Below, piece after piece: positions 3,495 through 50,669 of a stretch of 64,000 nucleotides of DNA. Origin of the DNA: Escherichia coli 042 (GTDB taxonomy: Bacteria; Pseudomonadota; Gammaproteobacteria; Enterobacterales; Enterobacteriaceae); the NCBI RefSeq assembly GCF_000027125.1, contig NC_017626.1. One strand, written 5' to 3'. Position numbers and translations under genes: made by a program. Numbering within the stretch: position 1 is the stretch's first letter; every line of letters starts with the position of its first letter. Under the pieces are notes generated by a model. It did no database searches, was not told the DNA's origin, and saw nothing but the letters and a program-made list of their open reading frames with translations.

Positions 3495-3576
3495 TGATTA
3501 TTTATTATCGTCATTAAGTTAGTCGTGGCATTTCGAATGCCTGAAACGGGCAACGCCGTCAATGAAATGGATGTTA

Positions 3577-3600
3577 AGGCATCCAGACGTCTAAATCAAT
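3577..3600 (-). promoter_or_regulatory. Candidate MetJ operator (met box) in the metN promoter region
   Basis: Perfect AGACGTCT octamer at 3585..3592 flanked by related octamers, about 90 bp upstream of the metN start. Confidence 0.45.
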
Positions 3601-3681
3601 CAGGTTTATGCGAAGAGCACTTTCTTGCAGGTCGAAACATGCGATACTAGCGTCACATGCCTTATTAAGGAGCTATAAAAG

Positions 3682-4254
3682 GTGGCGAAGAGCGTACCCG
3701 CAATTTTTCTTGACCGTGATGGCACCATTAATGTCGATCACGGCTATGTCCATGAGATCGATAACTTTGAATTTATCGACGGTGTTATTGACGCCATGCG
3801 CGAGCTAAAAAAAATGGGCTTCGCGCTGGTGGTAGTCACCAACCAGTCTGGCATTGCTCGCGGTAAATTTACTGAAGCACAGTTTGAAACGCTGACCGAG
3901 TGGATGGACTGGTCGCTGGCGGACCGCGATGTCGATCTGGATGGTATCTATTATTGCCCGCATCATCCGCAGGGTAGTGTTGAAGAGTTTCGCCAGGTCT
4001 GCGACTGCCGCAAACCACATCCGGGGATGCTTTTGTCGGCACGCGATTATTTGCATATTGATATGGCTGCTTCTTATATGGTGGGCGATAAATTAGAAGA
4101 TATGCAGGCAGCTGCTGCGGCGAACGTGGGAACAAAAGTGCTGGTGCGTACGGGTAAACCTGTTACGCCTGAAGCAGAAAACGCGGCGGATTGGGTGTTA
4201 AATAGCCTGGCAGACCTGCCGCAAGCGATAAAAAAGCAGCAAAAACCGGCGTAA
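3682..4254 (+). CDS. gmhB: D-glycero-beta-D-manno-heptose-1,7-bisphosphate 7-phosphatase GmhB (HAD family)
   Basis: 190 aa ORF with HAD motif FLDRDGTIN; sits immediately upstream of the rrnH promoters. Confidence 0.9.
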
Positions 4255-4297
4255 TGATTAAAAGATGAGCGGTTGAAATAAAAATGCATTTTTCCGC

Positions 4298-4325
4298 TTG
4301 TCTTCCTGAGCCGACTCCCTATAAT
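4298..4325 (+). promoter_or_regulatory. rrnH promoter P1
   Basis: -35 TTGTCT (4298..4303), 16 bp spacer, -10 TATAAT (4320..4325), GC-rich discriminator GCGCC; matches rrn P1 architecture. Confidence 0.75.
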
Positions 4326-4407
4326 GCGCCTCCATCGACACGGCGGATGTGAATCACTTCACACAAACAGTCGGTTCGGTTGAAGAGAAAAATCCTGAAA
4401 TTCAGGG

Positions 4408-4435
4408 TTGACTCTGAAAGAGGAAAGCGTAATAT
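4408..4435 (+). promoter_or_regulatory. rrnH promoter P2
   Basis: -35 TTGACT (4408..4413), 16 bp spacer, -10 TAATAT (4430..4435). Confidence 0.7.
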
Positions 4436-4475
4436 ACGCCACCTCGCGACAGTGAGCTGAAAGCCGCGTCGCAAC

Positions 4476-4488
4476 TGCTCTTTAACAA
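4476..4488 (+). promoter_or_regulatory. rrn leader boxA antitermination element
   Basis: Exact TGCTCTTTAACAA in the 16S leader; a second boxA-like copy (TGCTCTTTAAAAA) lies in the 16S-23S spacer at 6488..6500. Confidence 0.8.
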
Positions 4489-4619
4489 TTTATCAGACAA
4501 TCTGTGTGGGCACTCGAAGATACGGATTCTTAACGTCGCAAGACGAAAAATGAATACCAAGTCTCAAGAGTGAACACGTAATTCATTACGAAGTTTAATT
4601 CTTTGAGCATCAAACTTTT

Positions 4620-6161
<1,542 letters not shown>

Positions 6162-6229
6162 CCTTAAAGAAGCGTACTTTGCAGTGCTCACACAGATTGT
6201 CTGATGAAAATGAGCAGTAAAACCTCTAC

Positions 6230-6306
<77 letters not shown>

Positions 6307-6348
6307 AATTTGCACGGCAAATTTGAAGAGGTTTTAACTACATGTTAT

Positions 6349-6424
6349 GGGGCTATAGCTCAGCTGGGAGAGCGCCTGCTTTGCACGCAGGAGGTCTGCG
6401 GTTCGATCCCGCATAGCTCCACCA
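6349..6424 (+). tRNA. alaV: tRNA-Ala (TGC) in the 16S-23S spacer
   Basis: GGGGCTATAGCTCAGCTGGGAGAGCGCCTGCTTTGCACGCAGGAGGTCTGCGGTTCGATCCCGCATAGCTCCACCA, 76 nt. Confidence 0.97.
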
Positions 6425-6607
6425 TCTCTGTAGTGATTAAATAAAAAATACTTCAGAGTGTACCTGCAAAGGTTCACTGCGAAGTTTTGCTCTTTAAAAA
6501 TCTGGATCAAGCTGAAAATTGAAACACTGAACAACGAAAGTTGTTCGTGAGTCTCTCAAATTTTCGCAACACGATGATGAATCGAAAGAAACATCTTCGG
6601 GTTGTGA

Positions 6608-9513
<2,906 letters not shown>

Positions 9514-18000: not shown

Positions 18001-18077
18001 GGAGCGGTAGTTCAGTCGGTTAGAATACCTGCCTGTCACGCAGGGGGTCGCGGGTTCGAGTCCCGTCCGTTCCGCCA
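18001..18077 (+). tRNA. aspV: tRNA-Asp (GTC), a known genomic-island integration hotspot
   Basis: Identical 77 nt sequence to the rrnH-distal tRNA-Asp; followed by a hairpin and T-run terminator around 18106..18137. Confidence 0.97.
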
Positions 18078-24941: not shown

Positions 24942-26384
24942 TTACTGTTCTGCCGTGAATTTTTGTTCCAGTGCTTCCAGCAGGGACGGTTCCCATTCGG
25001 ACAGCATCATGTGTAATCCTGTTCTGAAGAGTATCCGGTACTGCTGTTGTGCAAGCTGAACCATACCGGCCTCTTCCAGTAACTGCGCGCCGAAAAACTG
25101 GCGGTGAAACTGGTGGCGGGGATCACCTTCGGGCAGGTTTTCCAGGTACCGCAGCGCGGCTTCCAGCCCGTTTTCATCGAAGCACGCCCTGGCCGCCTGT
25201 AATTCTTCATCGGTCTGTACAACCGGGGCGGTCTGGTTGACTGAGCCGGATGATGCCAGCCACTGTTTCGTCTGTTCGGACACAAACGGAGTGCGGTCGT
25301 TAAACAACAGGTTGATCAGTGCGGGCAGGCGGGCCAGAAAACCGGTAACTTCATCACGGATAGCATCCGCCACCTGTTTATAACCGAGGCGCAGCGCGGT
25401 CTGTGCTGAGAGGTAATGACCGTCCAGCCAGTACGGGGCCAGCAGCAGGCTTTTTTCCACCTGCTGCCACAGCGCCATGTCGGCATTGTTCAGCCGCGCC
25501 AGGTAATCATCCATCATATCGACAGGGAAGGCTGCCAGTGGGGTCCGGCCATCGCTTTCTGCCTGCGGGGTACTGGTGATGGTCTGCCACAGAGCATGGC
25601 GGCGCAGTCGGTAACCCTGCGGTGACTCCGGCTGGCGCTCACAGAGAATGGCGGCCACCTTCAGCAGGGTGTCGCGCCATGCTTTATCGTCGTGGCTGTC
25701 AACAGTGACCTGCGGGATTGGAGTGGCTGCAACAGGAGGCTGAGCGGCAACCGTGTGCGGTGACATATCCGGTACAGATCCGGCTGTGGCCTGCGGCGCA
25801 ATGGCGGCGGTTCGTGCAGATGATGGCATTTCAGGCGCTACATCACGAAACGCGCGCTGAAACAGGGCAAATAAATCGTCTGTCGCCTTAGCCAGCTCAG
25901 GAGCGTTGTGCGCCTGCCAGCACTGTGCCAGTTTTGCCAGCTCTCCCAGCAAAGCATCGCGCTGTATTGTCGCAGCATTCCCGGCAAAGTCCTGAACGGC
26001 AGACTCAAAGCGTTTTATCACCTGGGCGGCAAAGCGTTTTTTGTGGGCCATGTTCTGCGGTGCGGCGCATGTCCAGTAGTGTTCTGTATATTGTGCCAGC
26101 ATCCTGGAGGCCAGCAGAATATCACCGGCATGTTGCAGGGTACGCAGCAGGTGGGCCAGCAGGCGAAAATCTTTGGTTTCTGAGGCCAGAAGCATCAGGC
26201 CCCGGCGCTGAAGTTCCGGGATATCAAGCTGGCTGTGCGCCAGTGAACCGAGCTTGACGATTTCGCTGTCGACAAACTCCCAGTCTGCATTGCCATCATC
26301 AAGCGCGGCGGACAGCTTATCTTCCGGCAGGTTTTCCAGCAGGTGTGCAAGCCATACATCGGGATTACGTAAGTCCATTGCCAT
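24942..26384 (-). CDS. tssA: T6SS protein TssA (ImpA family)
   Basis: The ORF-track start at 26450 is an over-extension into the upstream gene; start taken at MAMDLRNPDVW, preceded by a GGGAGA ribosome-binding site. ImpA-like N-terminus. Confidence 0.8.
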   Translation of the reverse strand: MAMDLRNPDVWLAHLLENLPEDKLSAALDDGNADWEFVDSEIVKLGSLAHSQLDIPELQRRGLMLLASETKDFRLLAHLLRTLQHAGDILLASRMLAQYTEHYWTCAAPQNMAHKKRFAAQVIKRFESAVQDFAGNAATIQRDALLGELAKLAQCWQAHNAPELAKATDDLFALFQRAFRDVAPEMPSSARTAAIAPQATAGSVPDMSPHTVAAQPPVAATPIPQVTVDSHDDKAWRDTLLKVAAILCERQPESPQGYRLRRHALWQTITSTPQAESDGRTPLAAFPVDMMDDYLARLNNADMALWQQVEKSLLLAPYWLDGHYLSAQTALRLGYKQVADAIRDEVTGFLARLPALINLLFNDRTPFVSEQTKQWLASSGSVNQTAPVVQTDEELQAARACFDENGLEAALRYLENLPEGDPRHQFHRQFFGAQLLEEAGMVQLAQQQYRILFRTGLHMMLSEWEPSLLEALEQKFTAEQ

Positions 26385-26388
26385 ATTC

Positions 26389-27132
26389 TTATTCTCCCGC
26401 CCAGTGGCAGGCGTCGCGTAGCGGCGCAATAACCCGTGCCAGCCCGTCAATGTTAAAGGTCAGCTTTCCGGCGGCGTTGTCTGTGTCGGTATCCACCGTC
26501 AGCGTTTTTGCGCCGAACAGTTGCTTAATTTCATCGATACCGGATAACCCCCGGCTGGACTCCAGCAGGGTGCCGTTCTCGCGCACAAACCAGTGGCTGC
26601 GTAATGCCCGGCTGTCGGCATTCAGGGTGACGGCGATATCATGGACATCCAGAGGGTGCATCAGCGCCACCTGCATCCGGGTGATATTGTCCACGCAACT
26701 GAACATCAGCACCGGGCGCGGCGGAACATGGCCGATAGCCGGGGTGGTTATCACTACCGTCGGGCGTTCACCCGGCACCTGCGTCACCAGCAGCCCTGTG
26801 GTATTGCCCTGGCGGCGTTTTTCCTGCTCTGTGGCGCGGGTCCAGGCTTCGCCCTGGTAACGGGCTTTCACCAGTGCAGCCCCACCAAAGGCTGGCTGCT
26901 CTGGCGAAAGAATGCGGTCATAACAGTCAAGCCGCTCCAGCGCCGCAGGCTCCCGCCGACAGGACCGCATGGACTGTAACGTGGCTGCCGCATCCGAAGG
27001 TGTCGCTGTTGCAGCGGCTACCGCCACACCGGCCATTGACGATGTTTCTGCGGGCGCGGCACTGGCGGGTAAGCCCGCCATCAGGCCCGCGATAAACCAT
27101 CCTGTCTGCAGGAAAACGCGCAACCTGCTCAT
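26389..27132 (-). CDS. T6SS-associated secreted protein (VasI/TagO-like)
   Basis: 247 aa with N-terminal signal peptide (FIAGLMAGLPASAAPA); sits between clpV and tssA as in other T6SS clusters; 4 bp overlap with the clpV stop. Confidence 0.55.
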   Translation of the reverse strand: MSRLRVFLQTGWFIAGLMAGLPASAAPAETSSMAGVAVAAATATPSDAAATLQSMRSCRREPAALERLDCYDRILSPEQPAFGGAALVKARYQGEAWTRATEQEKRRQGNTTGLLVTQVPGERPTVVITTPAIGHVPPRPVLMFSCVDNITRMQVALMHPLDVHDIAVTLNADSRALRSHWFVRENGTLLESSRGLSGIDEIKQLFGAKTLTVDTDTDNAAGKLTFNIDGLARVIAPLRDACHWAGE

Positions 27133-29861
27133 AAAACCGTTTCATCCTCTGTGACGGACTCGTCGTTCAGAACATCTTCCACGTCTGCTGTGAATGCACC
27201 GTCTGCCACCGACAGGCGAATCCGGGCAATCGCCGTGTTAGCCGCCATTTTCTGCAACAGCAGCAGCGAGAGCGGCGGCAGCATGTCGCCGTCAATGACC
27301 GATTCGAGCATCCTCGCGCCGTTTTCCGCGCGGGTGACGCGGCTCATGATTTCGTCCGTCACTTCCGGTTCAATAATCACGTCCGCACCAAAGCGGCTGC
27401 GCAGCACGTTATCCAGGCGGGCCAGTTTCCCGGCAATAATGGTAGCGAGCGTCGCTTTCGACAGCGGCAGGTATGGCACCACTTCCATACGCGCCAGCAG
27501 GGCGGGTTTAAAGAAGTCTGCCAGCACCGGATACAGGGCTTCCTGCATGGTTTCCGGGTCATCGGCGTGTTCGACAATCACCTGATAGCCGAGGTTGGAG
27601 GTGAGGAAGAAGACGATGTTTTTACAGTCAATCAGGCGGCCCTCGCCGTCCGCCATCTCGCCCTTGTCAAACGCCTGGTAGAACAGGTTGAGCACATCCG
27701 GGTGCGCTTTTTCCACTTCATCGAGAAGTACCACCGAGTAGGGTTTCTGGCGGATGGCCTCAGTCAGCACGCCGCCTTCGCCATAGCCGACATAGCCCGG
27801 AGGGGAACCAATCAGCCGCGAGACGGTGTGCTTCTCCTGGAACTCGGACATATTGATGGTGGTCAGGTACTGGCGACCGCCGTAGAGCAGCTCTGCCAGT
27901 TGCAGGACGGTTTCGGTTTTACCCACGCCACTGGGACCAGCCAGCAGAAACGCGCCAAGCGGGCGTCCCGGACGGCGCAGGTCGGCGCGTGCGGTCAGCA
28001 GGTGTTTATGCAGGCTGGCAATCGCCAGGTCCTGGCCTTTGATGGTGTCACCAAGCCACTTCGGCAGGTCGGTGATGACCGACATTTCATTCTGCGACAG
28101 GCGGTTAAGCGGAACACCAGTCCATTCGGCAATTACCGCCGCAATCTGTTTTTTATCGACATGCGGAGAGACCAGCAACCGATCGTTATGCAGGGCGTCC
28201 AGTTCGGCAGTAAGCTGTGCCAGCCGCTGTACCGGGGAAACTGTTTCAGCGGTCTCTTCCGGCTGTACGCTGCCAGCTTCATCAGCCGGTATGGCACCAG
28301 TATTATCCTGTTCTGACTCTGGCGGCGTATCCACTACGGCATCTGTGTCCTCTGCAACGCCCAGTAACTGCTGGCGTAGCGTAATAATCTCCTGTACCAG
28401 CGCCTGTTGCTGGTGCCAGGCGGCTTCCAGTTCATCCAGCGCCGTCAGTGTTTCATCGTACTGCACCAGCACTTCCGTCATCCGGGCGGTATCGGTACGC
28501 AGCCCGATACGCCTTTCGCGCTCAAGCTGGCGGATTTCCGTCTCCTGCTGCTGGCTTAACGTGGCCAGCGCCGAAATCTGTTTCGGCGGCGAAGAAAGGT
28601 TGATTGCCACGCGGGCGCAGGCGGTGTCCAGCACATCAATCGCTTTGTCCGGCAACTGACGTCCGGAGAGATAACGCTCGCTCAGTGTTGCTGCGGCTTG
28701 TAAGGCCTCATCGTCAATCAGCACACCGTGAGACTGTTCATAGACCGCCGACAGGCCACGCAGAATAATCGTCGCTTCGGCAGCGTTAGGTTCGCTGACC
28801 TTAACTAACTGGAAGCGGCGCGATAAGGCAGCGTCTTTTTCGAAGTATTTTTTGTATTCGCTCCAGGTTGTGGCGGCGATGGTTTTCAGTTCGCCACGCG
28901 CCAGCGCCGGTTTGAGCAGGTTGGAGATATCCAGCCCGCCCTGCTGGTTGCCCGCGCCAATCAGGGTATGCGCTTCGTCGATAAACAGAATGATCGGCAC
29001 CGGGGAGGAAATGACCTCCGCCATCAGCCCTTTGAAACGTTTTTCGAATTCGCCCTTCACCGACGCTCCGGCCTGCAATGCGCCCAGGTCAAGGGTCATG
29101 ATATCGGTGTTTTTCAGCTTGTCCGGCACCTGGCCTGCCACGATGCGCAGCGCCAGCCCTTCAATCAGTGCGCTTTTGCCCACGCCCGCTTCGCCCACTA
29201 CCACCGGGTTATTTTTACGACGGCGGCAGAGAATGTCGATCATCAAATCGATTTCGTGGTCGCGGCACAGTACCGGATCGAGTTTTCCGTTACGGGCGTC
29301 TTCGGTCATATTTTTGGCATAGCGGGCAAGCAGGGTGTCGCCGGTTTCTGTTGCACGGAACGCTTGCCCACCAGCCAGATCCACGGATTCGGCGGATTCT
29401 TTTGTCCATGCGGTGAAATCCTGCTGTAACTGGTCACGGTTTATGGCCGTCAGCAGACGGGCAGCAGCGGGTGGAATATAGCGCAGCGGTGAATGCAGCA
29501 GAGTAAGCAGCAGGACGCCGCTGCGCAGTTCGCTGTGCTGCATCTGGGCTGAGGCCAGCAGCCATGACTCCTTGAGCCATTCGATCAGCATCGGGGAGAA
29601 GCTGGGATAGCCTTCGGCGGAACGTCCGCCGGGATAACTCTCCACGGTCAGCGCCTGGCGTAAATCCTCCGCACTGATGCCTGTGCGTTCGGCAATCACC
29701 CTTACGTCGCTGCGCGGGATAACCAGCATCTGCAACAGCATATGGGCAACGGTGATCTCACTGGCCTGCTGGCTCATACACTCCGAGGCAGCCATTTCCA
29801 GCGCCTGTTTTGCAAAGGGGTTAAGCCGCTTTACCAGCGTGGCTAAATCAATCTGGATCAT
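27129..29861 (-). CDS. clpV: T6SS AAA+ ATPase ClpV (TssH)
   Basis: 910 aa with two AAA+ modules (Walker A GEAGVGKSA and GPSGVGKT); ClpB-like but in T6SS context. Confidence 0.93.
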   Translation of the reverse strand: MIQIDLATLVKRLNPFAKQALEMAASECMSQQASEITVAHMLLQMLVIPRSDVRVIAERTGISAEDLRQALTVESYPGGRSAEGYPSFSPMLIEWLKESWLLASAQMQHSELRSGVLLLTLLHSPLRYIPPAAARLLTAINRDQLQQDFTAWTKESAESVDLAGGQAFRATETGDTLLARYAKNMTEDARNGKLDPVLCRDHEIDLMIDILCRRRKNNPVVVGEAGVGKSALIEGLALRIVAGQVPDKLKNTDIMTLDLGALQAGASVKGEFEKRFKGLMAEVISSPVPIILFIDEAHTLIGAGNQQGGLDISNLLKPALARGELKTIAATTWSEYKKYFEKDAALSRRFQLVKVSEPNAAEATIILRGLSAVYEQSHGVLIDDEALQAAATLSERYLSGRQLPDKAIDVLDTACARVAINLSSPPKQISALATLSQQQETEIRQLERERRIGLRTDTARMTEVLVQYDETLTALDELEAAWHQQQALVQEIITLRQQLLGVAEDTDAVVDTPPESEQDNTGAIPADEAGSVQPEETAETVSPVQRLAQLTAELDALHNDRLLVSPHVDKKQIAAVIAEWTGVPLNRLSQNEMSVITDLPKWLGDTIKGQDLAIASLHKHLLTARADLRRPGRPLGAFLLAGPSGVGKTETVLQLAELLYGGRQYLTTINMSEFQEKHTVSRLIGSPPGYVGYGEGGVLTEAIRQKPYSVVLLDEVEKAHPDVLNLFYQAFDKGEMADGEGRLIDCKNIVFFLTSNLGYQVIVEHADDPETMQEALYPVLADFFKPALLARMEVVPYLPLSKATLATIIAGKLARLDNVLRSRFGADVIIEPEVTDEIMSRVTRAENGARMLESVIDGDMLPPLSLLLLQKMAANTAIARIRLSVADGAFTADVEDVLNDESVTEDETVL

Positions 29862-38612: not shown

Positions 38613-39116
38613 TTATTTCTGAGCGGCGATACCCAGTTCTTGGATCAGCTGCTCGCGGCTGTCTTCGTTTTCCAGTAGCGCCTGAAGTTGTGCGCGGAAG
38701 GCCGGAATATTGCCTAGTGGAGACTTAAGTGCGACCAGAGCTTCACGCAATTCGAGCAGACGTTTTATTTCTGGTACCTGGCTGGCAATATGGTCCGGAG
38801 AAAGGTCATCCATAGATTTGACTTTCAGGTTGACGTACATTTGCTCATTGGGAGCGTCACTGAGTTCAGCCGGAACAACAAACTCCCGTTCAATGTCAGC
38901 TTCTGAAATGACTGCGTTGAGGTTATAGCGGTTGATAGCAATGGCAGTTCGCTCGTCCAACGGCGTGTTATCTGGTTTCCCTTTCAGATTGCCGGTGATC
39001 AATAAATTCAGCGGCAATTCGATATCAGCAGCCACCCCATCAACTTTTGGTGTATACCGAACGCTGATTCTTTCTTTCGGCGCGACACTGCCGCCATTGT
39101 TGTTCATTTTGCTCAT
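38613..39116 (-). CDS. tssB: T6SS contractile sheath small subunit TssB (VipA)
   Basis: 167 aa VipA-family sequence; first gene of the minus-strand operon. Confidence 0.93.
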   Translation of the reverse strand: MSKMNNNGGSVAPKERISVRYTPKVDGVAADIELPLNLLITGNLKGKPDNTPLDERTAIAINRYNLNAVISEADIEREFVVPAELSDAPNEQMYVNLKVKSMDDLSPDHIASQVPEIKRLLELREALVALKSPLGNIPAFRAQLQALLENEDSREQLIQELGIAAQK

Positions 39117-39818
39117 AAAAATGTTCCCGTTCAGGCCATGAGCACAGCATTTTCGTACTGCATAAAAATACCGAAGATACCGTTTCAGTGGCAGTTAGAT
39201 AATGTAACCTTCCTTCTGTTGTGATCGGTATTCTACTCATGAAATAAAATATTAAAAGAACTATTTATATTTTAGAAAGAGATGTATTCTTCCTTGCTAA
39301 TATATTATAGTGAAATAAATTTTGGTATTTATAGACTTGATGAATATGATTTTACGGTCAATAAAATGCCATAATATATTGATTTATATGTATTTATTAA
39401 ATTTATTAATAAGTTTTATGTATGGTTTTATCAATTGATTAATTGCTGGCAATACATCATAAGGAATTCCTTTAAGGAATGTCTTAATTGCGTGCTGGAA
39501 CGATGGCTGAGTAAGTGTCGTAATAATTTGTTTTTGACGCGGCTGTGGATTTTTATGGGGGGAAGGATACGTTATGGATAATTCTGCTGTTGAAGTTGAT
39601 ATATTTTTAGCTTATGTGACCGTGTTCTGAAATTGACTAAAAATATATTTAAACACCATAAAAGAGTTTTTCAGTAGGTGCTAATTACGTGTGCCTGTAA
39701 CTCGAATAAAGAAAAGGGTGTGGTTCCTGATGTGAGCCGCATCACACTCTAACCCGTCGGGGATTAACGACGGGTTGTTCGTAAAACAGCAGTTGATAAT
39801 TTCACAAGGAGTTCATAA

Positions 39819-40337
39819 ATGCCAACCCCATGTTACATTTCAATTACAGGTCAGACCCAGGGGAACATCACTGCCGGTGCTTTCACCGCAGATTCTGTCG
39901 GCAATATCTACGTGCAGGGACACGAAGATGAAATGCTGGTGCAGGAGTTTCTGCATAACGTTACTGTTCCAACCGATCCACAGTCTGGTCAACCTTCCGG
40001 GCAGCGCGCGCACAAACCGTTCATTTTCACCGTGGCGCTGAACAAAGCCGTTCCGCTGCTGTACAACGCGCTGGCCTCCGGTGAAATGCTGCCGAAAGTG
40101 GAGCTGCACTGGTGGCGTACTTCAGTTGAAGGCAAGCAGGAGCACTACTTCACCACACGTCTTACTGACGCGACGATTGTGGACATGAACCTGCACATGC
40201 CGCACTGCCAGGACCCTGCACAGCGTGAGTTTACGCAATTGCTCGCAGTATCACTGGCATACCGTAAGGTTGAGTGGGAGCACATCAAATCCGGTACTTC
40301 TGGTGCCGATGACTGGCGTGCACCGCTGGAAGCATAA
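39819..40337 (+). CDS. hcp: Type VI secretion tube protein Hcp (TssD), first gene of the divergent operon
   Basis: 172 aa starting MPTPCYISITGQTQGNITAGAF, recognised as Hcp1-family; AAGGAG ribosome-binding site upstream. Confidence 0.93.
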   Translation: MPTPCYISITGQTQGNITAGAFTADSVGNIYVQGHEDEMLVQEFLHNVTVPTDPQSGQPSGQRAHKPFIFTVALNKAVPLLYNALASGEMLPKVELHWWRTSVEGKQEHYFTTRLTDATIVDMNLHMPHCQDPAQREFTQLLAVSLAYRKVEWEHIKSGTSGADDWRAPLEA

Positions 40338-40557: not shown

Positions 40558-42516
40558 ATGTCCTTAAAAGGTCTGCGCTTTACGCTGGAGATTGACGGCC
40601 AGGAGCCGGACACCTTTGCAGTGGTGCATTTCAGGTTAATCCAGAACCAGTCTTATCCGTTTGTGATGAGTGTGGATGTTGCCAGCGACTCTTTTATGCA
40701 GACGGCGGAGATGCTGCTGGAGAAGAAGGCGACGCTGACCATCTGGCAGGGCGTCATCCCGCTGCGTTATGTCACCGGCGTGGTGGCGGGTTTTGGCATG
40801 CAGGAGAACAATGGCTGGCAGATGCGTTATCACCTGCGTATTGAGCCGCCGTTATGGCGGTGCGGGCTGCGGCAGAACTTCCGTATCTTCCAGCAGCAGG
40901 ATATCCGGACGATATCGGCCACGTTACTGAACGAGAACGGCGTCACGGAGTGGACACCGCTGTTTTATGAGGACCATCCGGCGCGGGAGTTCTGTGTCCA
41001 GTACGGGGAAAGCGACCTGGCGTTTCTGGCGCGGTTGTGGGCGGAGGAGGGAATTTTCTTCTTTGAGCGGTTTGCGGCGGACAGTCCGGAGCAGAAGCTG
41101 ACGCTGTGCGACGATGTGGCGGGGCTGTCACAGGCGGGAGAGCTTCCGTTTAACCCGGACACATCGGCAGGAGCGGAGACAGAGTGTGTCAGTATGTTCC
41201 GTTATGAGGCGTATGTCCGCCCGTCGTCGGTGCAGAGCCAGGATTACACGTTTAAGGTGCCGGACTGGCCGGGGATGTATGAGCAGCAGGGTGAGAACCT
41301 GAACGGACAGCTGGAGCAGTATGAGATATTTGATTATCCGGGAAGGTTCAAGGATGAACAGCACGGCAAGGATTTCACGCTGTACCAGATGGAGAGCCTG
41401 CGCAGTGATGCGGAAAAGGCCACAGGGCAGAGTAATTCACCGAAGCTGTGGCCGGGAACGCGGTTTACGCTGACGGGGCATCCGCAGAAGATGCTGAACC
41501 GTGAATGGCAGGTGGTACAGAGTATTCTGTCAGGGGACCAGCCGCAGGCGCTGCACGGCAGCCAGGGGAGAGGAACCACGCTGGGAAATCAGTTAGAGGT
41601 GATACCGGCGGACCGGACGTGGCGTCCACGGCTGCAAAGCAAACCGAAGGTGGACGGGCCACAGAGCGCCATTGTCACCGGTCCTGCGGGAGAGGAAATC
41701 TTCTGCGACGAACACGGACGTGTGCGAGTGCAGTTTCACTGGGACAGGTATAACCCGGCAACGGAGGCGAGTTCATGCTGGGTGAGGGTGTCGCAGGCGT
41801 GGGCGGGGCCGGGATTTGGTAACCTGGCGATACCGCGCATCGGCCAGGAAGTGATTGTAGACTTCCTGAACGGCGACCCGGACCAGCCGATAATCATGGG
41901 GCGGACGTACCATGAGGACAACCGTTCGCCGGGGAGTCTGCCGGGGACGAAGACGCAGATGACGATACGGTCGAAGACCTATAAAGGAAGCGGCTTTAAT
42001 GAACTGCGGTTCGAGGACGCGACGGACAAGGAAGAAATTTACCTGCACGCACAGAAAAATATGCAAGTCGTTGTGCTGAACAGCAAGGATAAGCGGGTCA
42101 ACTATGACCGGACGGTCAGCATCGGGCATGATGAATCCCTGGTGGTGGCAAATGACCGGAAAGTGACGGTTGAAGGTAAACAGGACCATAAAACCACCAA
42201 AGACCATGTCAGCCTGACAGAGGGCAATCAGGGGCTGGAGGTGAAAGGCGATCTGGCACAGAAAATAAGCGGCGCGCTGGGTATCAGCGTACAGGGCGAT
42301 ATTGTTTTACAGAGCGACAGCAAAATCAGTCTGCGGGTGGGCGGTTCATTTGTGGTGATCCATTCCGGCGGCGTGGATATTAAGGGCGCGAAAATCAATC
42401 TTAACGGCGGAGGCAGTCCGGGAGACGTGATCCTGCCGATGCGCCCGGTGATCCTGAAAGCCGCAGCCGGAAGCGGGACAATGTTTGTGGCGCACTGCCC
42501 GAAGGAGGATAAGTGA
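40558..42516 (+). CDS. vgrG: T6SS spike protein VgrG (TssI)
   Basis: 652 aa; gp27-like N-terminus, gp5-like OB fold and repeat region; no obvious C-terminal effector extension. Confidence 0.92.
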   Translation: MSLKGLRFTLEIDGQEPDTFAVVHFRLIQNQSYPFVMSVDVASDSFMQTAEMLLEKKATLTIWQGVIPLRYVTGVVAGFGMQENNGWQMRYHLRIEPPLWRCGLRQNFRIFQQQDIRTISATLLNENGVTEWTPLFYEDHPAREFCVQYGESDLAFLARLWAEEGIFFFERFAADSPEQKLTLCDDVAGLSQAGELPFNPDTSAGAETECVSMFRYEAYVRPSSVQSQDYTFKVPDWPGMYEQQGENLNGQLEQYEIFDYPGRFKDEQHGKDFTLYQMESLRSDAEKATGQSNSPKLWPGTRFTLTGHPQKMLNREWQVVQSILSGDQPQALHGSQGRGTTLGNQLEVIPADRTWRPRLQSKPKVDGPQSAIVTGPAGEEIFCDEHGRVRVQFHWDRYNPATEASSCWVRVSQAWAGPGFGNLAIPRIGQEVIVDFLNGDPDQPIIMGRTYHEDNRSPGSLPGTKTQMTIRSKTYKGSGFNELRFEDATDKEEIYLHAQKNMQVVVLNSKDKRVNYDRTVSIGHDESLVVANDRKVTVEGKQDHKTTKDHVSLTEGNQGLEVKGDLAQKISGALGISVQGDIVLQSDSKISLRVGGSFVVIHSGGVDIKGAKINLNGGGSPGDVILPMRPVILKAAAGSGTMFVAHCPKEDK

Positions 42517-46025: not shown

Positions 46026-46337
46026 TTAACCTGTTGGGCTACAAATCAGGATGTCCGGTAAGGTGATTATTACTGAGTTAAGCACCTTACCGTTTTTTAA
46101 ATTTTTTGTCGCTGATATTCCAGACAGGAAAACAATATGCCTTTAGCTGCCAGATTAAACGACAAAGGTACCGGCACAGGGAAAGATCACGTAACGCTGC
46201 TTTTTTGTACTAAATAATTCGCATTTTATGTTTAAAATTTGAGATATTCCTCATTACCTGAGGCTGTTTTTTATTACTTATACATGATCAAATACTCCTT
46301 ACATAATTAAGGGGAACAAAATGGAACTTAAAAATTG

Positions 46338-47262: not shown

Positions 47263-49153
47263 GTGTGCCGCAGGAACACAAGATAGCTGCATAAGGATAC
47301 GCAGTTAGCTTTTGTATAAGCTCATAAAGAGATGGTGGAAGGCCCACCGGGATCGGCTGTCGGAAGCAGATTCCAAACCACTTCATGCTGCTGTGGTAAA
47401 GAGCCATGGTAGTGAGCGATGAAGTAAAGCGTGAGTGAAAACTCAGCAGGTAAGATACTCATGAGACGAGTGAACCCGAACCCATGTTGACGCGTCGTAA
47501 ACCAGAGACTGACATCAAAACCGAAGGGGCGTCCAGCCTTCGGGATAAGTCTGCGAGTGAATTCCGAATGCTGCGCAGACGGTGTCCGGCGTAAAGTGGG
47601 CGTGACGGAGTATCAGGCTCTTCCTGGGAACTGCGGGAACCTGTCGTTGTGATGATAAGGGAGAAATGCAAGTCACTGAATTGGCGAGCATGAAAGTACC
47701 GATGCACAGCACAGGGACGGAGCCGTTCGTAGTAGTGATGAAGCTTCTGTAATGGAGGTGGAGCGAAGGGGCGGCATCAGACAGTCTTTGGACAGTGTTC
47801 AACTGAACATGTTCAGGAGGAGACAATGACAAAGACAAAAGCGTTTAACATTGATAAGTCACTGGTGGTCAGCGCGTACAGGCGAGTGAAGACCAGTGCA
47901 GGCGCGGCGGGAATTGATAAGCAATCGCTGGCGGACTTTGATAAACGGTTAGTTGATAATCTGTACAAAATCTGGAACCGACTTTCTTCAGGAAGTTATT
48001 TCCCACCGGCAGTGAAAGCGGTGGCAATTCCGAAGAAATTGGGTGGAGAGAGAATTCTGGGTATCCCGACAGTCAGCGATCGTATCGCGCAGACGGTGGT
48101 AAAACTGGCCTTTGAGCCACAGGTTGAGCCACATTTTCTGGCAGACTCTTACGGCTACAGACCGAATAAATCGGCACTGGATGCTATAGGGGTAACGCGT
48201 AAGCGTTGCTGGTATTACGACTGGGTACTGGAATTTGACATCAAAGGGCTGTTCGATAACATCCCGCACGAACTGATAATGAAAGCCGTGGACAAACACA
48301 ATCCGGCCCGGTGGGTAAAATTGTATATACAGCGGTGGCTGACAGCGCCGATGGTGATGTCAGACGGAGAAGTCAGAGCACGAACAATGGGAACGCCGCA
48401 GGGAGGTGTCATAAGTCCGTTGCTGGCAAACCTGTTCATGCATTATGTGTTTGATAAATGGCTGGCAAAATATTATCCGAAAGTGCCGTGGTATCGATAT
48501 GCTGATGATGGCATTTTGCATTGTCACAGCGAAGCAGAAGCGACTGAAATGCGAGAAGTATTACGCAAAAGATTTAGCGAATGCGGACTGGAAATGCATC
48601 CGGAGAAAACGCGAGTTATCTACTGCAAAGATGGAAGCCGGAAGGGTGATTATGAACATACCATGTTCGACTTTCTGGGGTACACATTCAGGCGACGCGT
48701 AGTAAAGAACGTTAAGCGAAACAGTCTGTTTGTAAGTTTTACCCCCGCAGCGAGCAAATCAGCGCTAAAGGCAATGCGTCGGGAAATCAAAGCGACAGGG
48801 ATAAGGAAAAGAGTGGATTTAAGCATTGAGCAGATAGCGAAATGGATAAATCCAAAACTGAATGGCTGGATAAATTATTACGGGCGATATACCTGTTCGG
48901 AATTATACAGCGTGTTCAGATATATCAATAAAGCACTGGTGAGGTGGGGGCGTAAGAAATATAAAATGCTCAGCCGATACAAGACAAGAGCCTCAAAATT
49001 TCTGGAAGAAATGGCGAAGCGAAGTCCACAGTTGTTTGCCCACTGGCGTCTGAAGATGAGAGGCGGACTTGTTTGATGGGAGCGGTATGAGCCGAGAGGT
49101 TCACGTACCGTTCTGCGAGAGGCTGCGGGGGAGGTTCCTGCGGCCTACTCACC
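47263..49153 (+). mobile_element. Group II intron (about 1.9 kb) inserted in the transposase gene
   Basis: Insert begins GTGTG (GUGYG consensus), contains the RT/maturase ORF in the position of domain IV, has a domain V-like hairpin (GAGCGGTATGAGCCGAGAGGTTCACGTACCGTTC, about 49080..49114) and ends just before the exon 2 sequence seen in the intact copy. Boundaries are good to about 1 nt. Confidence 0.8.
47826..49076 (+). CDS. Group II intron-encoded reverse transcriptase/maturase
   Basis: 416 aa; RT motifs including YADD ([11 protein letters not shown]) and a C-terminal maturase (domain X) region. Confidence 0.88.
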
Positions 49154-49378: not shown

Positions 49379-50669
49379 CAGGGAAAGATCATCAGAAGTA
49401 CACTTTTTGTACTAAACAATTCGCATTTTATGTTTAAAAATTGAGATATTCCTCATTACCTGAAGCTGTTTTTTATTGCTTATACATGATCAAATACTCC
49501 TTACATAATTAAGGAGAACAAAATGGAACTTAAAAAATTGATGGAGCATATTTCTATTATCCCCGATTACAGACAAGCCTGGAAAGTGGAACATAAATTA
49601 TCGGATATTCTACTGTTGACTATTTGTGCCGTTATTTCTGGTGCAGAAGGTTGGGAAGATATAGAGGATTTTGGGGAAACACATCTCGATTTTTTGAAGC
49701 AATATGGTGATTTTGATAATGGTATTCCTGTTCACGATACCATTGCCAGAGTTGTATCCTGTATCAGTCCTGCAAAATTTCACGAGTGCTTTATTAACTG
49801 GATGCGTGACTGCCATTCTTCAGATGATAAAGACGTCATTGCAATTGATGGAAAAACGCTCCGACACTCTTATGACAAGAGTCGCCGCAGGGGAGCGATT
49901 CATGTCATTAGTGCGTTCTCAACAATGCACAGCCTGGTCATCGGACAGATCAGGACGGATGAGAAATCTAATGAGATTACAGCTATCCCTGAACTTATTA
50001 ACATGCTGGATATTAAAGGAAAAATCATCACAACTGATGCGATGGGTTGCCAGAAAGATATTGCAGAGAAGATACAAAAACAGGGAGGTGATTATTTATT
50101 CGCTGTAAAAGGAAACCAGGGGCGGCTAAATAAAGCCTTCGAGGAAAAATTTCTGCTGAAAGAATTAAATAATCCAGAGCATGACAGTTACGCAATTAGT
50201 GAAAAGAGTCACGGCAGAGAAGAAATCCGTCTTCACATTGTTTGCGATGTCCCTGATGAACTTATTGATTTCACGTTTGAATGGAAAGGTCTGAAGAAAT
50301 TATGCGTGGCAGTCTCCTTTCGGTCAATAATAGCAGAACAAAAGAAAGAGCCCCAAATGACGGTCAGATATTATATCAGTTCTGCTGATTTAACCGCAGA
50401 GAAGTTCGCCACAGCAATCCGAAACCACTGGCACGTGGAGAATAAGCTGCACTGGCGTCTGGACGTGGTAATGAATGAAGACGACTGCAAAATAAGAAGA
50501 GGAAACGCAGCAGAATTATTTTCAGGGATACGGCACATTGCTATTAATATTTTGACGAATGATAAGGTATTCAAGGCAGGGTTAAGACGTAAGATGCGAA
50601 AAGCAGCCATGGACAGAAACTACCTGGCGTCAGTCCTTGCGGGGAGCGGGCTTTCGTAATCTTGCCCTG
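49379..50669 (+). mobile_element. ISAs1-family (H-repeat) insertion sequence, copy 2 (intact), in tandem 21 bp after copy 1
   Basis: Inverted repeats CAGGGAAAGATCATC and TTCGTAATCTTGCCCTG at the ends; 1291 bp. Confidence 0.8.
49523..50659 (+). CDS. ISAs1-family transposase (H-repeat-associated protein), intact
   Basis: 378 aa, [50 protein letters not shown]...; DDE-type H-repeat transposase. Confidence 0.88.

What the first reader, a model, noticed from the sequence alone, without database searches (positions are those of the whole stretch)
39117..39818. 700 bp AT-rich divergent control region between tssB and hcp with overlapping palindromes
The intergenic region driving both T6SS operons is strongly AT-rich and contains a perfect 12 bp palindrome AAGGAATTCCTT (39461..39472) overlapping a second near-palindrome TTCCTTTAAGGAA. 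Long AT-rich tracts are typical of H-NS-silenced horizontally acquired promoters, and the palindromes are candidate operators for a dedicated regulator. I found no sigma-54 type TGGCAC-N5-TTGC element.
Basis: partly seen in the sequence, partly recalled or inferred. Interest (0 to 1): 0.4.

Follow-up and report, generated by a model that had tools for sequence, protein, structure and literature searches.

The report
E. coli T6SS-2 divergent promoter region
This is the AT-rich, H-NS-silenced control region between the two operons of an E. coli type VI secretion island, already studied in related strains, and the perfect palindrome is specific to one allele and sits next to a better-conserved site that resembles an RcsB binding box.

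Summary
tssB (38613-39116, minus) and hcp (39819-40337, plus) flank 702 bp at 33% GC, against 51% for the window. AAGGAATTCCTT lies at 39461-39472 and overlaps ATTCCTTTAAGGAAT.

The locus is the ExPEC-type T6SS-2 island at tRNA-Asp. Published work on a 91.5%-identical APEC allele shows derepression in an hns mutant and no Fur effect. No sigma-54 or Fur site is present.

One 12-bp palindrome is unremarkable: 29% of shuffles have one. It is perfect in only 195 of 551 genomes that carry the block. The two palindromes come from two tandem copies of a 14-bp dyad.

Only the hcp-side copy (39473-39486, TAAGGAATGTCTTA) recurs at the same position in two other diverged E. coli T6SS-2 variants, including the EHEC type. 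It is absent from the other genera. It fits the RcsB box with one mismatch, a candidate assignment only.

The elements conserved across the whole family lie elsewhere:
- a tssB -10 (TAGAAT, 39235-39230) with a dyad over the -35 zone;
- two covarying hairpins in the hcp leader, with GGA in one loop and in the Shine-Dalgarno sequence.

Verdict: an ordinary, largely known kind of region with some uncharacterised details.

The parts
38613..39116 (-). tssB coding sequence, first gene of the structural operon (tssB to hcp2A)
   Evidence: ORF list and RefSeq annotation of an identical genome
39117..39818 (.). 702-bp AT-rich divergent control region
   Evidence: GC 0.33 against 0.513 for the window. 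Present in 552 of 5426 complete E. coli genomes. Homologous spacers of 579-724 bp at 29-35% GC occur in about nine genera.
39135..39192 (-). Conserved part of the tssB leader. Possible helices are 39135-38 with 39189-92 and 39144-50 with 39177-83.
   Evidence: 92% of cells pair across 12 lineages, but covariation does not exceed the shuffles, so the structure is compatible and not shown. The window's own fold is not unusual (z = -0.98).
39230..39235 (-). Predicted tssB -10 hexamer TAGAAT. The implied transcription start is near 39223, giving a leader of about 107 nt.
   Evidence: Family-wide conserved block GCATTCTACG. Other genera have TAAAAT, TAATAT or TAAGAT, which keeps the TAnnnT pattern. 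The start site is inferred, not mapped.
39251..39266 (.). Family-wide conserved dyad-like block ATTAAAAGAACTATTT (AAAAG-N2-CTTTT type) over the -35 zone of the predicted tssB promoter
   Evidence: Among the best-conserved blocks across 14 sequences. It is unique in the window. The binding factor is unknown.
39276..39291 (.). Conserved upstream block AAAGAGATGTATTCTT (family consensus AAAGAGAGGTATCCTT)
   Evidence: Alignment A3
39372..39384 (-). IHF-like core (WATCAANNNNTTR). The ATTGAT part is semi-conserved across genera.
   Evidence: Two exact core matches in the spacer against 0.12 expected (p = 0.008); alignment A3
39429..39441 (+). Second IHF-like core TATCAATTGATTA, specific to this allele group
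   Evidence: It carries one mismatch in the S88-type allele.
39460..39473 (.).
   Evidence: Perfect in 195 of 551 genomes. The alleles with two differences that were read have TAAGAAATTCCTTT. No counterpart exists in the EHEC-type spacer.
39466..39480 (.). 15-bp perfect palindrome ATTCCTT-T-AAGGAAT, formed at the junction of the two dyad copies
   Evidence: Conserved in the ExPEC-type alleles and E. whittamii. Its left arm is absent from the EHEC-type and CUVET16-type spacers.
39473..39486 (.). Dyad copy 2, TAAGGAATGTCTTA: the conserved element and a candidate RcsB-type box
   Evidence: The same position holds TAAGGAATATCTCA in the EHEC type and the perfect palindrome TAAGGATATCCTTA in the CUVET16 type. 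The joint chance of a match this good at this offset is 0.007. It is the only site within one mismatch of TN(G/A)GAN4TC(T/C)NA in each of these spacers except CUVET16, where the dyad has two mismatches and the one hit lies elsewhere.
39520..39539 (.). Degenerate copy (GTAATAATTTGTTTTTGACG) of the family-wide central block TATAATATTTATTCATGATTCAG
   Evidence: 20 of 20 bases are identical between EHEC-type E. coli and a Salmonella locus, but the block has diverged in this lineage.
39599..39648 (.). 12-bp perfect inverted repeat ATATATTTTTAG ... CTAAAAATATAT with 26 nt between the arms
   Evidence: No shuffle out of 300 reached 12 bp. It is specific to this lineage.
39609..39632 (+). Counterpart of the segment whose removal abolished the CpxR-P shift of the APEC hcp2B promoter probe. 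This allele has GTGACC where APEC has GTAATC.
   Evidence: Primer sequences in PMC6534853 mapped
39720..39740 (+). hcp leader hairpin H1 (GUGGUUC / GAGCCGC)
   Evidence: RNAalifold and pair counts over 12 lineages; 84% of cells pair
39731..39746 (.). Perfect CRP-type core TGTGA-N6-TCACA, overlapping the 3' arm of H1
   Evidence: No shuffle out of 1000 gave one. It is confined to the close relatives of this allele.
39751..39776 (+). hcp leader hairpin H2 (AACCCGUC / GACGGGUU, loop with GGA at 39761-39763)
   Evidence: 95.8% of cells pair and 6 of 8 pairs show compensatory changes. The G-U pairs fit only the hcp-sense strand. GGA is in the loop in 8 of 12 lineages.
39806..39811 (+). hcp Shine-Dalgarno sequence AAGGAG, invariant in all lineages
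39819..40337 (+). hcp (hcp2B type) coding sequence, first gene of the effector operon

Best explanation
The 702 bp are the bidirectional control region of the ExPEC-type T6SS-2 (T6SS-i1) island inserted next to a tRNA-Asp gene. The DNA is AT-rich and horizontally acquired, and H-NS keeps it silent. That step was shown experimentally for a 91.5%-identical APEC allele and for the EHEC-type homologue, and is inferred for this allele. The core signals are not the palindromes. tssB is read from a -10 hexamer conserved across the family (TAGAAT, 39235-39230, minus strand), with a conserved dyad-like block over its -35 zone and a leader of about 107 nt; all of this is inferred from conservation. hcp carries a leader of at least 100 nt with two hairpins, H1 and H2. 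H2 is shown by covariation. GGA in the H2 loop and GGA in the Shine-Dalgarno sequence give the two-site layout that CsrA-type repressors use (inferred). The palindromes sit at the midpoint of the spacer, about 245-255 bp upstream of the predicted tssB start. They are two tandem copies, 13 bp apart, of a 14-bp dyad of the form TAAGG-N4-YCTTA. Only the hcp-side copy (39473-39486) is kept in the other E. coli T6SS-2 variants. I think it is most likely a remote site for a dimeric response regulator, with RcsB the best candidate. Such a factor could counter H-NS silencing of both promoters, possibly helped by bending at the IHF-like sites that lie between it and the tssB promoter. This last step is inference. 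The perfect 12-bp palindrome itself results from a G/A polymorphism in the less conserved copy.
For: Identity of the locus and its divergent layout. H-NS derepression and the lack of a Fur effect in APEC XM: PMC5874247, with the XM spacer 91.5% identical. H-NS repression of the EHEC-type cluster. The tssB -10 and the block over -35 rank among the best-conserved columns across 14 sequences. H1 and H2: 90.4% of cells pair, 9 of 15 pairs have compensatory changes, no shuffle out of 500 reaches the covariation score, and slid controls pair at 34-45%. The window's own hcp leader folds with z = -2.5. CsrA repression of EHEC hcp3 and tssC is reported, as cited in PMC13141884. The dyad is a conserved patch between the most variable stretches among Escherichia alleles. 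It recurs about 350 bp from the tssB ATG in the EHEC-type and CUVET16-type spacers, with a joint chance of 0.007. In the EHEC-type lineage the 41-bp block around it is identical in 2167 of 2229 genomes. The RcsB box TN(G/A)GAN4TC(T/C)NA comes from PMC7913699, which also reports that an AGA-to-AGG change in one half-site still allowed binding, and lists TAAGGTTTATCCGA as the rcsA promoter box. The dyad is the only site within one mismatch of that box in the ExPEC-type, E. whittamii, EHEC-type and PCN033 spacers. RcsB is reported to control T6SS activity in porcine ExPEC strain PCN033 (review PMC10482370), and PCN033 carries the EHEC-type spacer with the dyad. In Serratia, RcsB footprints 418-438 nt upstream of the first T6SS gene, so remote RcsB sites do occur in T6SS control regions.
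Against: No transcription start, H-NS binding or RcsB binding has been measured for this allele. A match to the degenerate RcsB pattern is expected about once per 702 bp by chance: observed 2 strand hits against 2.03 in shuffles. The CUVET16 version has AGG in both half-sites, and PMC7913699 reports reduced binding for that change in the first half-site. I could not read the PCN033 paper (Hu 2021), so RcsB may act elsewhere or indirectly. The dyad is absent from the eight or nine other genera with the same layout. Within E. coli the two allele groups differ at 2 of 41 positions in the block, which is not clearly below the roughly 8% divergence of the whole spacer. In six EHEC-type alleles the dyad lies in a 111-bp invariant run, and 30% of 41-bp windows are also invariant. 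A promoter fragment that lacks the dyad still drives lacZ in APEC.
Confidence: 0.55

Rival explanations
1. The palindromes have no function. A 13-bp slippage duplication in AT-rich DNA created two dyad copies and a junction palindrome. The region works only through H-NS, the proximal promoters and the leaders.
For: 29% of shuffles contain a 12-bp palindrome. The repeat structure explains the overlap. The perfect form is allele-specific. The dyad is absent from other genera. A dyad-less fragment has promoter activity in APEC. Within-lineage conservation is not exceptional.
Against: An overlapping pair occurs in only 0.7% of shuffles. The hcp-side copy recurs at the same position in spacers that are otherwise almost unalignable, with joint p = 0.007. 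One of those variants has a perfect 14-bp palindrome at that spot. In E. whittamii the block is flanked by strongly diverged sequence.
Confidence: 0.3
2. The dyads are the operator of a regulator other than RcsB. Candidates are an E. coli-specific or island-associated helix-turn-helix dimer, or an Xre/MqsA-like protein that recognises TCCT-N3-AGGA.
For: The site has dyad symmetry and two tandem copies. The motif is restricted to spacers resident in E. coli. TCCT-N3-AGGA is absent from 1000 shuffles. The RcsB pattern match carries no statistical weight on its own.
Against: No regulator gene lies in or beside the island. The TCCT-N3-AGGA palindrome is missing from the EHEC-type and CUVET16-type spacers, where only TAAGGA(A)TATC is kept. 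No known motif other than the RcsB box fitted. The comparisons with MqsA, PmrA, IclR and others rest on my recall of their consensus sequences.
Confidence: 0.2
3. Expression is driven mainly by another known T6SS control scheme: a sigma-54 promoter with an enhancer-binding protein, a Fur/Dam switch as in EAEC sci1, or CRP and CpxR acting on the hcp side.
For: A perfect CRP core lies at 39731-39746, with none in 1000 shuffles. A CRP site was also predicted in silico for the Shigella sonnei homologue. CpxR-P shifts the APEC hcp2B promoter fragment.
Against: No sigma-54 match within 3 mismatches and no Fur box within 6 of 19 mismatches. Fur has no effect on this cluster in APEC. The CRP core is confined to this allele's close relatives and overlaps hairpin H1. 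The CpxR-dependent segment carries two substitutions in this allele, GTAATC to GTGACC.
Confidence: 0.1

Closest known systems
APEC/ExPEC T6SS2 vipA2-hcp2B divergent region (strains XM and DE719; PMC5874247, PMC6534853)
   Same: It is the same chromosomal locus with the same genes. The spacer is 91.5% identical in strain XM. H-NS derepression, serum induction and CpxR-P binding to the hcp-proximal ~210 bp have been reported.
   Different: The window carries the other main allele, identical to ST69-type genomes. It has a perfect palindrome where APEC has AAGAAATTCCTT, and GTGACC instead of GTAATC in the CpxR-dependent segment. Neither paper, as far as I could read, describes the central dyads, the tssB -10 or the hcp leader hairpins.
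EHEC O157:H7 T6SS-2 tssB-hcp3 bidirectional promoter region 't6sP' (PMC13141884; Kim et al. 2022, not readable here)
   Same: It has the same divergent layout at the same tRNA-Asp locus, a 696-bp AT-rich spacer and H-NS repression. It shares the conserved tssB -10, the -35-zone block, H1/H2, the Shine-Dalgarno sequence and the central dyad TAAGGAATATCTCA.
   Different: tssB is only about 70% identical at the DNA level, and the spacers give no BLASTN hit to each other. The EHEC type has one dyad copy, not two, and keeps the block TACAATATTTATTCATGATTCAG, which has degenerated in the window.
RcsB box and RcsB control of T6SS (Salmonella RcsB structures, PMC7913699; Serratia marcescens T6SS, PMC5565961; porcine ExPEC PCN033, Hu 2021, cited in PMC10482370)
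   Same: It is a 14-bp pseudo-palindrome of the form TN(G/A)GA-N4-TC(T/C)NA. Site 39473-39486 matches with one mismatch, of a kind reported to be tolerated. The Serratia precedent is also a remote upstream site. PCN033 carries the dyad.
   Different: Binding is untested here. The pattern is degenerate enough to occur by chance about once per spacer. Copy 1 fits worse in this allele, with AGG in both half-sites.
CsrA/RsmA-repressed T6SS leaders (Pseudomonas aeruginosa tssA1 and fha1; EHEC hcp3 and tssC reported as CsrA-repressed)
   Same: GGA sits in a hairpin loop, and a second GGA lies in the Shine-Dalgarno sequence about 45 nt downstream.
   Different: No binding data exist. GGA is in the loop in only 8 of 12 lineages. 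The element has no Rfam family.
EAEC sci1 (T6SS-1) promoter with overlapping Fur boxes and Dam sites
   Same: It is also a T6SS promoter in an E. coli genomic island that is under transcriptional repression.
   Different: The window has no Fur box and Fur has no effect on this cluster. It belongs to a different T6SS subclass and does not have the tssB-hcp divergent layout (my recollection of the sci1 organisation).

Membership tests
H-NS-silenced horizontally acquired promoter region | AT content well above the host genome average | tested here: met
   33% GC against 51% for the window, with a minimum near 23%. Homologous spacers are 29-35% GC.
H-NS-silenced horizontally acquired promoter region | Located in a variably present island at a tRNA gene | tested here: met
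   tRNA-Asp lies at 18001-18077 beside the island. This spacer type is found in 552 of 5426 complete E. coli genomes.
H-NS-silenced horizontally acquired promoter region | Derepression in an hns mutant and direct H-NS binding | not testable with these tools
   Derepression was reported for the 91.5%-identical APEC XM allele and for EHEC. Binding to the EHEC spacer is stated in PMC13141884.
Sigma-54-dependent T6SS promoter (VasH/Sfa type) | A -24/-12 element TGGCAC-N5-TTGCW and an enhancer-binding protein gene in the cluster | tested here: not met
   No match within 3 mismatches. No such gene is present in the island.
Fur-repressed T6SS promoter (sci1 type) | A 19-bp Fur box over the core promoter | tested here: not met
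   No match within 6 of 19 mismatches. Fur has no effect on clpV2 or hcp2B in APEC.
RcsB box | The 14-bp pseudo-palindrome TN(G/A)GAN4TC(T/C)NA | tested here: inconclusive
   39473-39486 matches with one mismatch, AGA plus AGG half-sites. Shuffles give as many matches.
RcsB box | RcsB binding and rcsB-dependent expression | not testable with these tools
   RcsB dependence of the T6SS in PCN033 is cited in a review. The primary paper is not held.
Palindromic operator of a dedicated, cluster-encoded regulator | Dyad symmetry conserved wherever the cluster occurs | tested here: not met
   The perfect palindrome occurs in 195 of 551 genomes. The dyad is absent from the homologous spacers of eight or nine other genera.
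Palindromic operator of a dedicated, cluster-encoded regulator | A cognate regulator gene in or next to the cluster | tested here: not met
   None is annotated in three annotated versions of the island.
CsrA-controlled leader | GGA in the loop of a hairpin plus GGA overlapping the Shine-Dalgarno sequence, 10-60 nt apart | tested here: met
   The H2 loop has GGA at 39761-63 and the Shine-Dalgarno AAGGAG is at 39806-11. H2 is supported by covariation.
CsrA-controlled leader | CsrA binding and translational repression | not testable with these tools
   There is only an indirect report for EHEC hcp3 and tssC.
CpxR-activated hcp2B promoter | A GTAAA-N4-8-GTAAA site in the hcp-proximal promoter | tested here: not met
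   No match within 2 mismatches in 39600-39818. The segment needed for the APEC shift has GTGACC here instead of GTAATC.
CRP-dependent promoter | A TGTGA-N6-TCACA core at a class I or class II distance from a mapped start | tested here: inconclusive
   A perfect core lies at 39731-39746. No start site is known, the core overlaps hairpin H1, and it is limited to close relatives.

The most novel reading that the evidence does not exclude
Two undescribed control elements sit in this well-known kind of region. The first is a pair of hairpins in the hcp leader, kept by compensatory changes across about nine genera of Enterobacterales and absent from Rfam. It would act as a docking site for CsrA or a similar RNA-binding regulator and gate Hcp translation. 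The second is the central dyad, which would be the point where an envelope-stress regulator (RcsB) lifts H-NS silencing of both operons in E. coli. The probability given is for the hairpin pair being a functional regulatory RNA element.
Probability: 0.45. Interest if true: 0.45.

Novelty: already known. Interest (0 to 1): 0.27.

Why it matters
T6SS-2 is the most widespread type VI system in E. coli, yet in EHEC and Shigella sonnei it stays silent in the laboratory and its natural inducing signals are still unknown. A map of which parts of the spacer are conserved, and at what phylogenetic depth, tells experimenters where to look. The tssB -10 and its -35-zone block, together with the hcp leader hairpins, are shared across genera. 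The central dyad is specific to E. coli and is the natural place to test the reported RcsB dependence. If RcsB binding were confirmed, it would link envelope damage to firing of the system. The perfect palindrome that drew attention is not a priority target.

Tried and rejected
- **Sigma-54 and Fur.** A sigma-54 promoter and a Fur box were searched for and not found.
- **CRP.** A perfect core exists at 39731-39746. It is restricted to this lineage and overlaps hairpin H1, so I did not adopt it as the main control.
- **CpxR.** The published APEC site region differs in this allele, and no consensus match is present.
- **PmrA/BasR.** TTTAAG-N6-CTTAAT has the right hexamers, but the spacer is one base longer than the box as I recall it. 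The CUVET16 variant lacks the TTAAG core.
- **MqsA-like ACCT-N3-AGGT.** The junction palindrome is TCCT-N3-AGGA and is not kept in the other E. coli variants.
- **Small ORF 39435-39581 (48 aa).** Alleles differ by one-base and four-base indels, so it is not coding.
- **Promoter on the palindrome.** The simple scan gave AAGACA-18-TATGAT on the minus strand over the palindrome. The final T of the -10 is lost in E. whittamii, and the region as a whole has no more promoter-like hits than shuffles.
- **Rfam.** Nothing meaningful was found.
- **IS remnant.** ISAs1-type left ends in the window carry TGAGATATTCCTCA, 13 of 14 bases matching the EHEC-type dyad. The pattern is expected about 3 times per window by chance, so I treat this as coincidence.
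- **tssB leader structure.** It is compatible with pairing but is not supported beyond sequence conservation.
- **Searches with poor yield.** The genome-contig scan returned only 3 loci. The key primary papers, Kim 2022 on EHEC start sites and Hu 2021 on RcsB in PCN033, are not held.
Full report
**Observation**

The window sequence shows tssB at 38613-39116 on the minus strand and hcp at 39819-40337 on the plus strand. They are separated by 702 bp. A RefSeq genome identical over this stretch (strain 118UI) annotates the same genes and nothing in the spacer.

The spacer is 33.0% GC against 51.3% for the window, and 200-bp windows fall to about 23%. AAGGAATTCCTT is at 39461-39472. The second palindrome is perfect and longer than reported: ATTCCTT-T-AAGGAAT at 39466-39480.

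A perfect palindrome of 12 bp or more occurs in 29% of dinucleotide shuffles of the spacer, and 13 occur in the window. The single palindrome is therefore unremarkable. An overlapping even-plus-odd pair is rare, at 0.7% of shuffles. The pair has a simple origin: it is a 13-bp tandem repeat, TAAGGAATTCCTT followed by TAAGGAATGTCTT. No sigma-54 element lies within three mismatches of the consensus.

**What the locus is**

The spacer is present in 552 of 5426 complete E. coli genomes. There are two main allele groups: 174 genomes at 99% identity or more, and 353 at 90-95%, the latter including S88, UTI89, APEC O1 and ExPEC XM.

The island lies between yafT and yafV beside a tRNA-Asp gene. It encodes tssB, tssC, tssE, tssF, tssG, tagH, tssJ, tssK, tssL, tssH, vasI, tssA, tssM, a VasL-domain protein and an Hcp on one strand. 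On the other strand it encodes hcp, vgrG and effector genes. No regulator gene is present. In the E. coli literature this is T6SS2, which corresponds to subclass i1.

**Published work on the locus**

- Ma et al. (PMC5874247) studied this locus in APEC XM. Inactivating hns raised clpV2, hcp2A and hcp2B. Iron limitation and Fur had no effect. Duck serum induced both directions.
- Yi et al. (PMC6534853) showed that a fragment equivalent to window 39609-39843 drives lacZ. They also showed that CpxR-P shifts the equivalent of 39609-39833, unless the first ~24 bp are removed. In the window allele that segment reads GTGACC where APEC has GTAATC.

The suggested fur experiment is unlikely to be informative.

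**Comparison with relatives**

A second, much commoner E. coli variant has the same layout at the same locus. This Z1002 type is found in 2265 genomes, including O157:H7 and PCN033. Its tssB is only about 70% identical at the DNA level, and its spacer gives no BLASTN hit to the window's spacer. It is the EHEC "t6sP" bidirectional promoter. That region is described as bound by H-NS, and its native promoters are still called unknown in a 2026 paper. A third variant occurs in strain CUVET16-465.

Searching with TssB recovered the same divergent hcp-tssB layout in Escherichia whittamii, Pseudocitrobacter, Salmonella (three types), Superficieibacter, Buttiauxella, Enterobacter, Kluyvera, Citrobacter and Hafnia. 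Their spacers are 579-724 bp long and 29-35% GC.

**Elements conserved across the whole family**

An alignment of 14 spacers, scored with the three near-identical Escherichia sequences down-weighted, gives these blocks.

- *tssB -10.* GCATTCTACG at 39228-39237 reads CGTAGAATGC on the tssB strand. The hexamer varies as TAGAAT, TAAAAT, TAATAT or TAAGAT, which keeps the TAnnnT pattern of a -10 element. I take it as the tssB -10. The start would then be near 39223 and the leader about 107 nt. This is inference only; no start site has been mapped.
- *Block over the -35 zone.* TTTAAAAGMACTTTTT at 39251-39266 is a dyad-like block. It is unique in the window. Its binding factor is unknown.
- *tssB leader.* The blocks around 39133-39141 and 39188-39193 can pair. 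However, covariation does not exceed the controls, and the window's own fold is unremarkable.
- *Central block.* TATAATATTTATTCATGATTCAG is identical over 20 bases between EHEC-type E. coli and a Salmonella locus. It has degenerated in the window lineage to GTAATAATTTGTTTTTGACG (39520-39539).
- *hcp side.* The conserved parts are the stem of a hairpin and the Shine-Dalgarno region.

**The hcp leader**

RNAalifold on 12 lineages predicts two hairpins: H1 (39720-26 with 39734-40) and H2 (39751-58 with 39769-76).

On the named structure, 90.4% of cells pair and 9 of 15 pairs show compensatory changes. No shuffle out of 500 reaches the covariation score, and partners slid by 1-3 columns pair at only 34-45%. 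H2 alone pairs in 95.8% of cells, and 6 of its 8 pairs show compensatory changes. The many G-U pairs fit only the hcp-sense strand, so this is an RNA feature. The hcp transcript must therefore start upstream of about 39720. The window's own leader folds into H1 and H2 with z = -2.5.

The H2 loop carries GGA in 8 of 12 lineages, and the invariant Shine-Dalgarno sequence AAGGAG supplies a second GGA about 45 nt downstream. This is the layout used by CsrA/RsmA repressors. CsrA repression of EHEC hcp3 and tssC has been reported, as cited in PMC13141884. Binding here is inference. Rfam has no family for the element.

**The palindromes**

Among Escherichia alleles, the block 39455-39489 has 1-2 variable columns per 25 bases. 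The stretches on either side have 8-14. The perfect 12-mer depends on a single G at 39464:

| Allele class of the 41-bp block 39452-39492 | Genomes (of 551) |
|---|---|
| Identical to the window | 195 |
| Two differences | 346 |
| Three differences | 10 |

Every sampled allele of the 90-95% group, and E. whittamii, reads AAGAAATTCCTT and has A instead of G at 39481. Two differences in 41 bases is not clearly below the roughly 8% divergence of the whole spacer.

The more telling result comes from the deep variants. At the same place, about 350-365 bp from the tssB ATG and 318-348 bp from the hcp ATG, the other two variants carry a related site:

| Variant | Sequence at the equivalent position |
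|---|---|
| Window (ExPEC type), copy 2 | TAAGGAATGTCTTA |
| EHEC type (Z1002, PCN033) | TTTAAGGAATATCTCAA |
| CUVET16 type | TAAGGATATCCTTA (perfect 14-bp palindrome) |

Between S88 and the EHEC type, this 17-mer is the best local alignment in the whole central 300 bp. The chance of a match that good at an offset within 10 bp is 0.007.

In the EHEC-type lineage, 2167 of 2229 genomes are identical over the 41 bp around it. That evidence is weak, however. In six sampled alleles the site lies in a 111-bp invariant run, and 30% of 41-bp windows are also invariant.

The motif is absent from the spacers of the other genera.

**What might bind**

The published RcsB box is TN(G/A)GAN4TC(T/C)NA (PMC7913699). 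Copy 2 matches with one mismatch on either strand. Read on the minus strand it is TAAGA-CATT-CCTTA, which gives AGA in one half-site and AGG in the other. PMC7913699 reports that AGA in the first half-site and AGG in the second each still allowed binding. It also lists TAAGGTTTATCCGA as the rcsA promoter box.

In the ExPEC-type, E. whittamii, EHEC-type and PCN033 spacers, this is the only site within one mismatch of the box. A review states that RcsB controls polymyxin-induced T6SS activity in porcine ExPEC PCN033, and PCN033 carries the EHEC-type spacer with the dyad. In Serratia, RcsB footprints 418-438 nt upstream of the first T6SS gene, so a remote position is not an obstacle.

Several points count against the assignment. 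The pattern is loose enough to occur about once per spacer by chance. The CUVET16 form has AGG in both halves. I could not read the PCN033 paper. I put RcsB at roughly one in three, some other factor at one in five, and no function at about three in ten.

Two exact IHF core matches (39372-84 and 39429-41) lie between the dyads and the tssB promoter, against 0.12 expected. Bending at these sites could let a remote factor act on the promoter. This is speculation.

**Other features in the spacer**

- A perfect CRP core lies at 39731-39746, with none in 1000 shuffles. It is limited to close relatives and overlaps H1.
- A 12-bp perfect inverted repeat at 39599-39610 and 39637-39648 brackets the CpxR-dependent segment. 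No shuffle out of 300 reached 12 bp. It is specific to this lineage.

**Verdict**

The finding is real but ordinary. It is the H-NS-silenced bidirectional control region of E. coli T6SS-2, already studied in APEC and, in its EHEC form, in several papers. The weight placed on the perfect palindrome and on a dedicated regulator is not supported.

The uncharacterised details worth recording are three:
- the E. coli-specific central dyad, which fits an RcsB box;
- the family-wide tssB -10 and the block over its -35 zone;
- the covarying hairpin pair in the hcp leader.

Noticed in passing
window 39720-39776: Two hairpins in the hcp 5' leader are kept by compensatory changes across about nine genera. 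GGA is in the H2 loop in 8 of 12 lineages. There is no Rfam family for the element.
   Followed up: yes
window 39251-39266 and 39230-39235: A dyad-like block (AAAAG-N2-CTTTT type) and a TAGAAT hexamer are the best-conserved spacer elements across all genera. They probably form the tssB core promoter together with an unknown factor's site.
   Followed up: partly
window 39520-39539; L013 4391-4413: The central block TACAATATTTATTCATGATTCAG is identical over 20 bases between EHEC-type E. coli and a Salmonella locus, but it has degenerated in the window's lineage. This suggests one control element was lost or replaced in the ExPEC type.
   Followed up: partly
window 39599-39610 and 39637-39648: A 12-bp perfect inverted repeat with 26 nt between the arms was never reached in 300 shuffles. 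It brackets the segment needed for the CpxR-P shift in APEC and overlaps a TTGACT hexamer at 39633-39638.
   Followed up: partly
window 39731-39746: A perfect CRP-type core TGTGAGCCGCATCACA lies about 80 bp upstream of the hcp ATG. It overlaps hairpin H1 and could form a competing stem with it.
   Followed up: partly
window 46240-46253 and 49442-49455: The left ends of two ISAs1-family elements carry TGAGATATTCCTCA, 13 of 14 bases matching the reverse complement of the EHEC-type dyad. This is probably coincidence.
   Followed up: partly
L010 (E. coli SCU-176) 3288-7543: Two IS1A copies have rearranged the locus. hcp keeps only 142 bp of its upstream region, and tssB now lies downstream on the same strand.
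   Followed up: no
L004 (Moellerella wisconsensis ATCC 35017, 285-bp contig): A 285-bp contig holds the start of tssB and 190 bp of the spacer, nearly identical to the E. coli S88-type allele. It looks like E. coli contamination of that assembly.
   Followed up: no
L023 (E. coli PCN033) 25391-27184: In the RefSeq annotation, tssG is split by an IS200C insertion and vgrG is frameshifted. Yet the strain's T6SS is reported in the literature as functional.
   Followed up: no
window 40558-42459 and 47826-49076: In the identical RefSeq genome, the vgrG next to hcp is annotated as incomplete (a pseudogene). A group II intron reverse transcriptase gene (ltrA) sits inside an ISAs1-family element downstream.
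   Followed up: no
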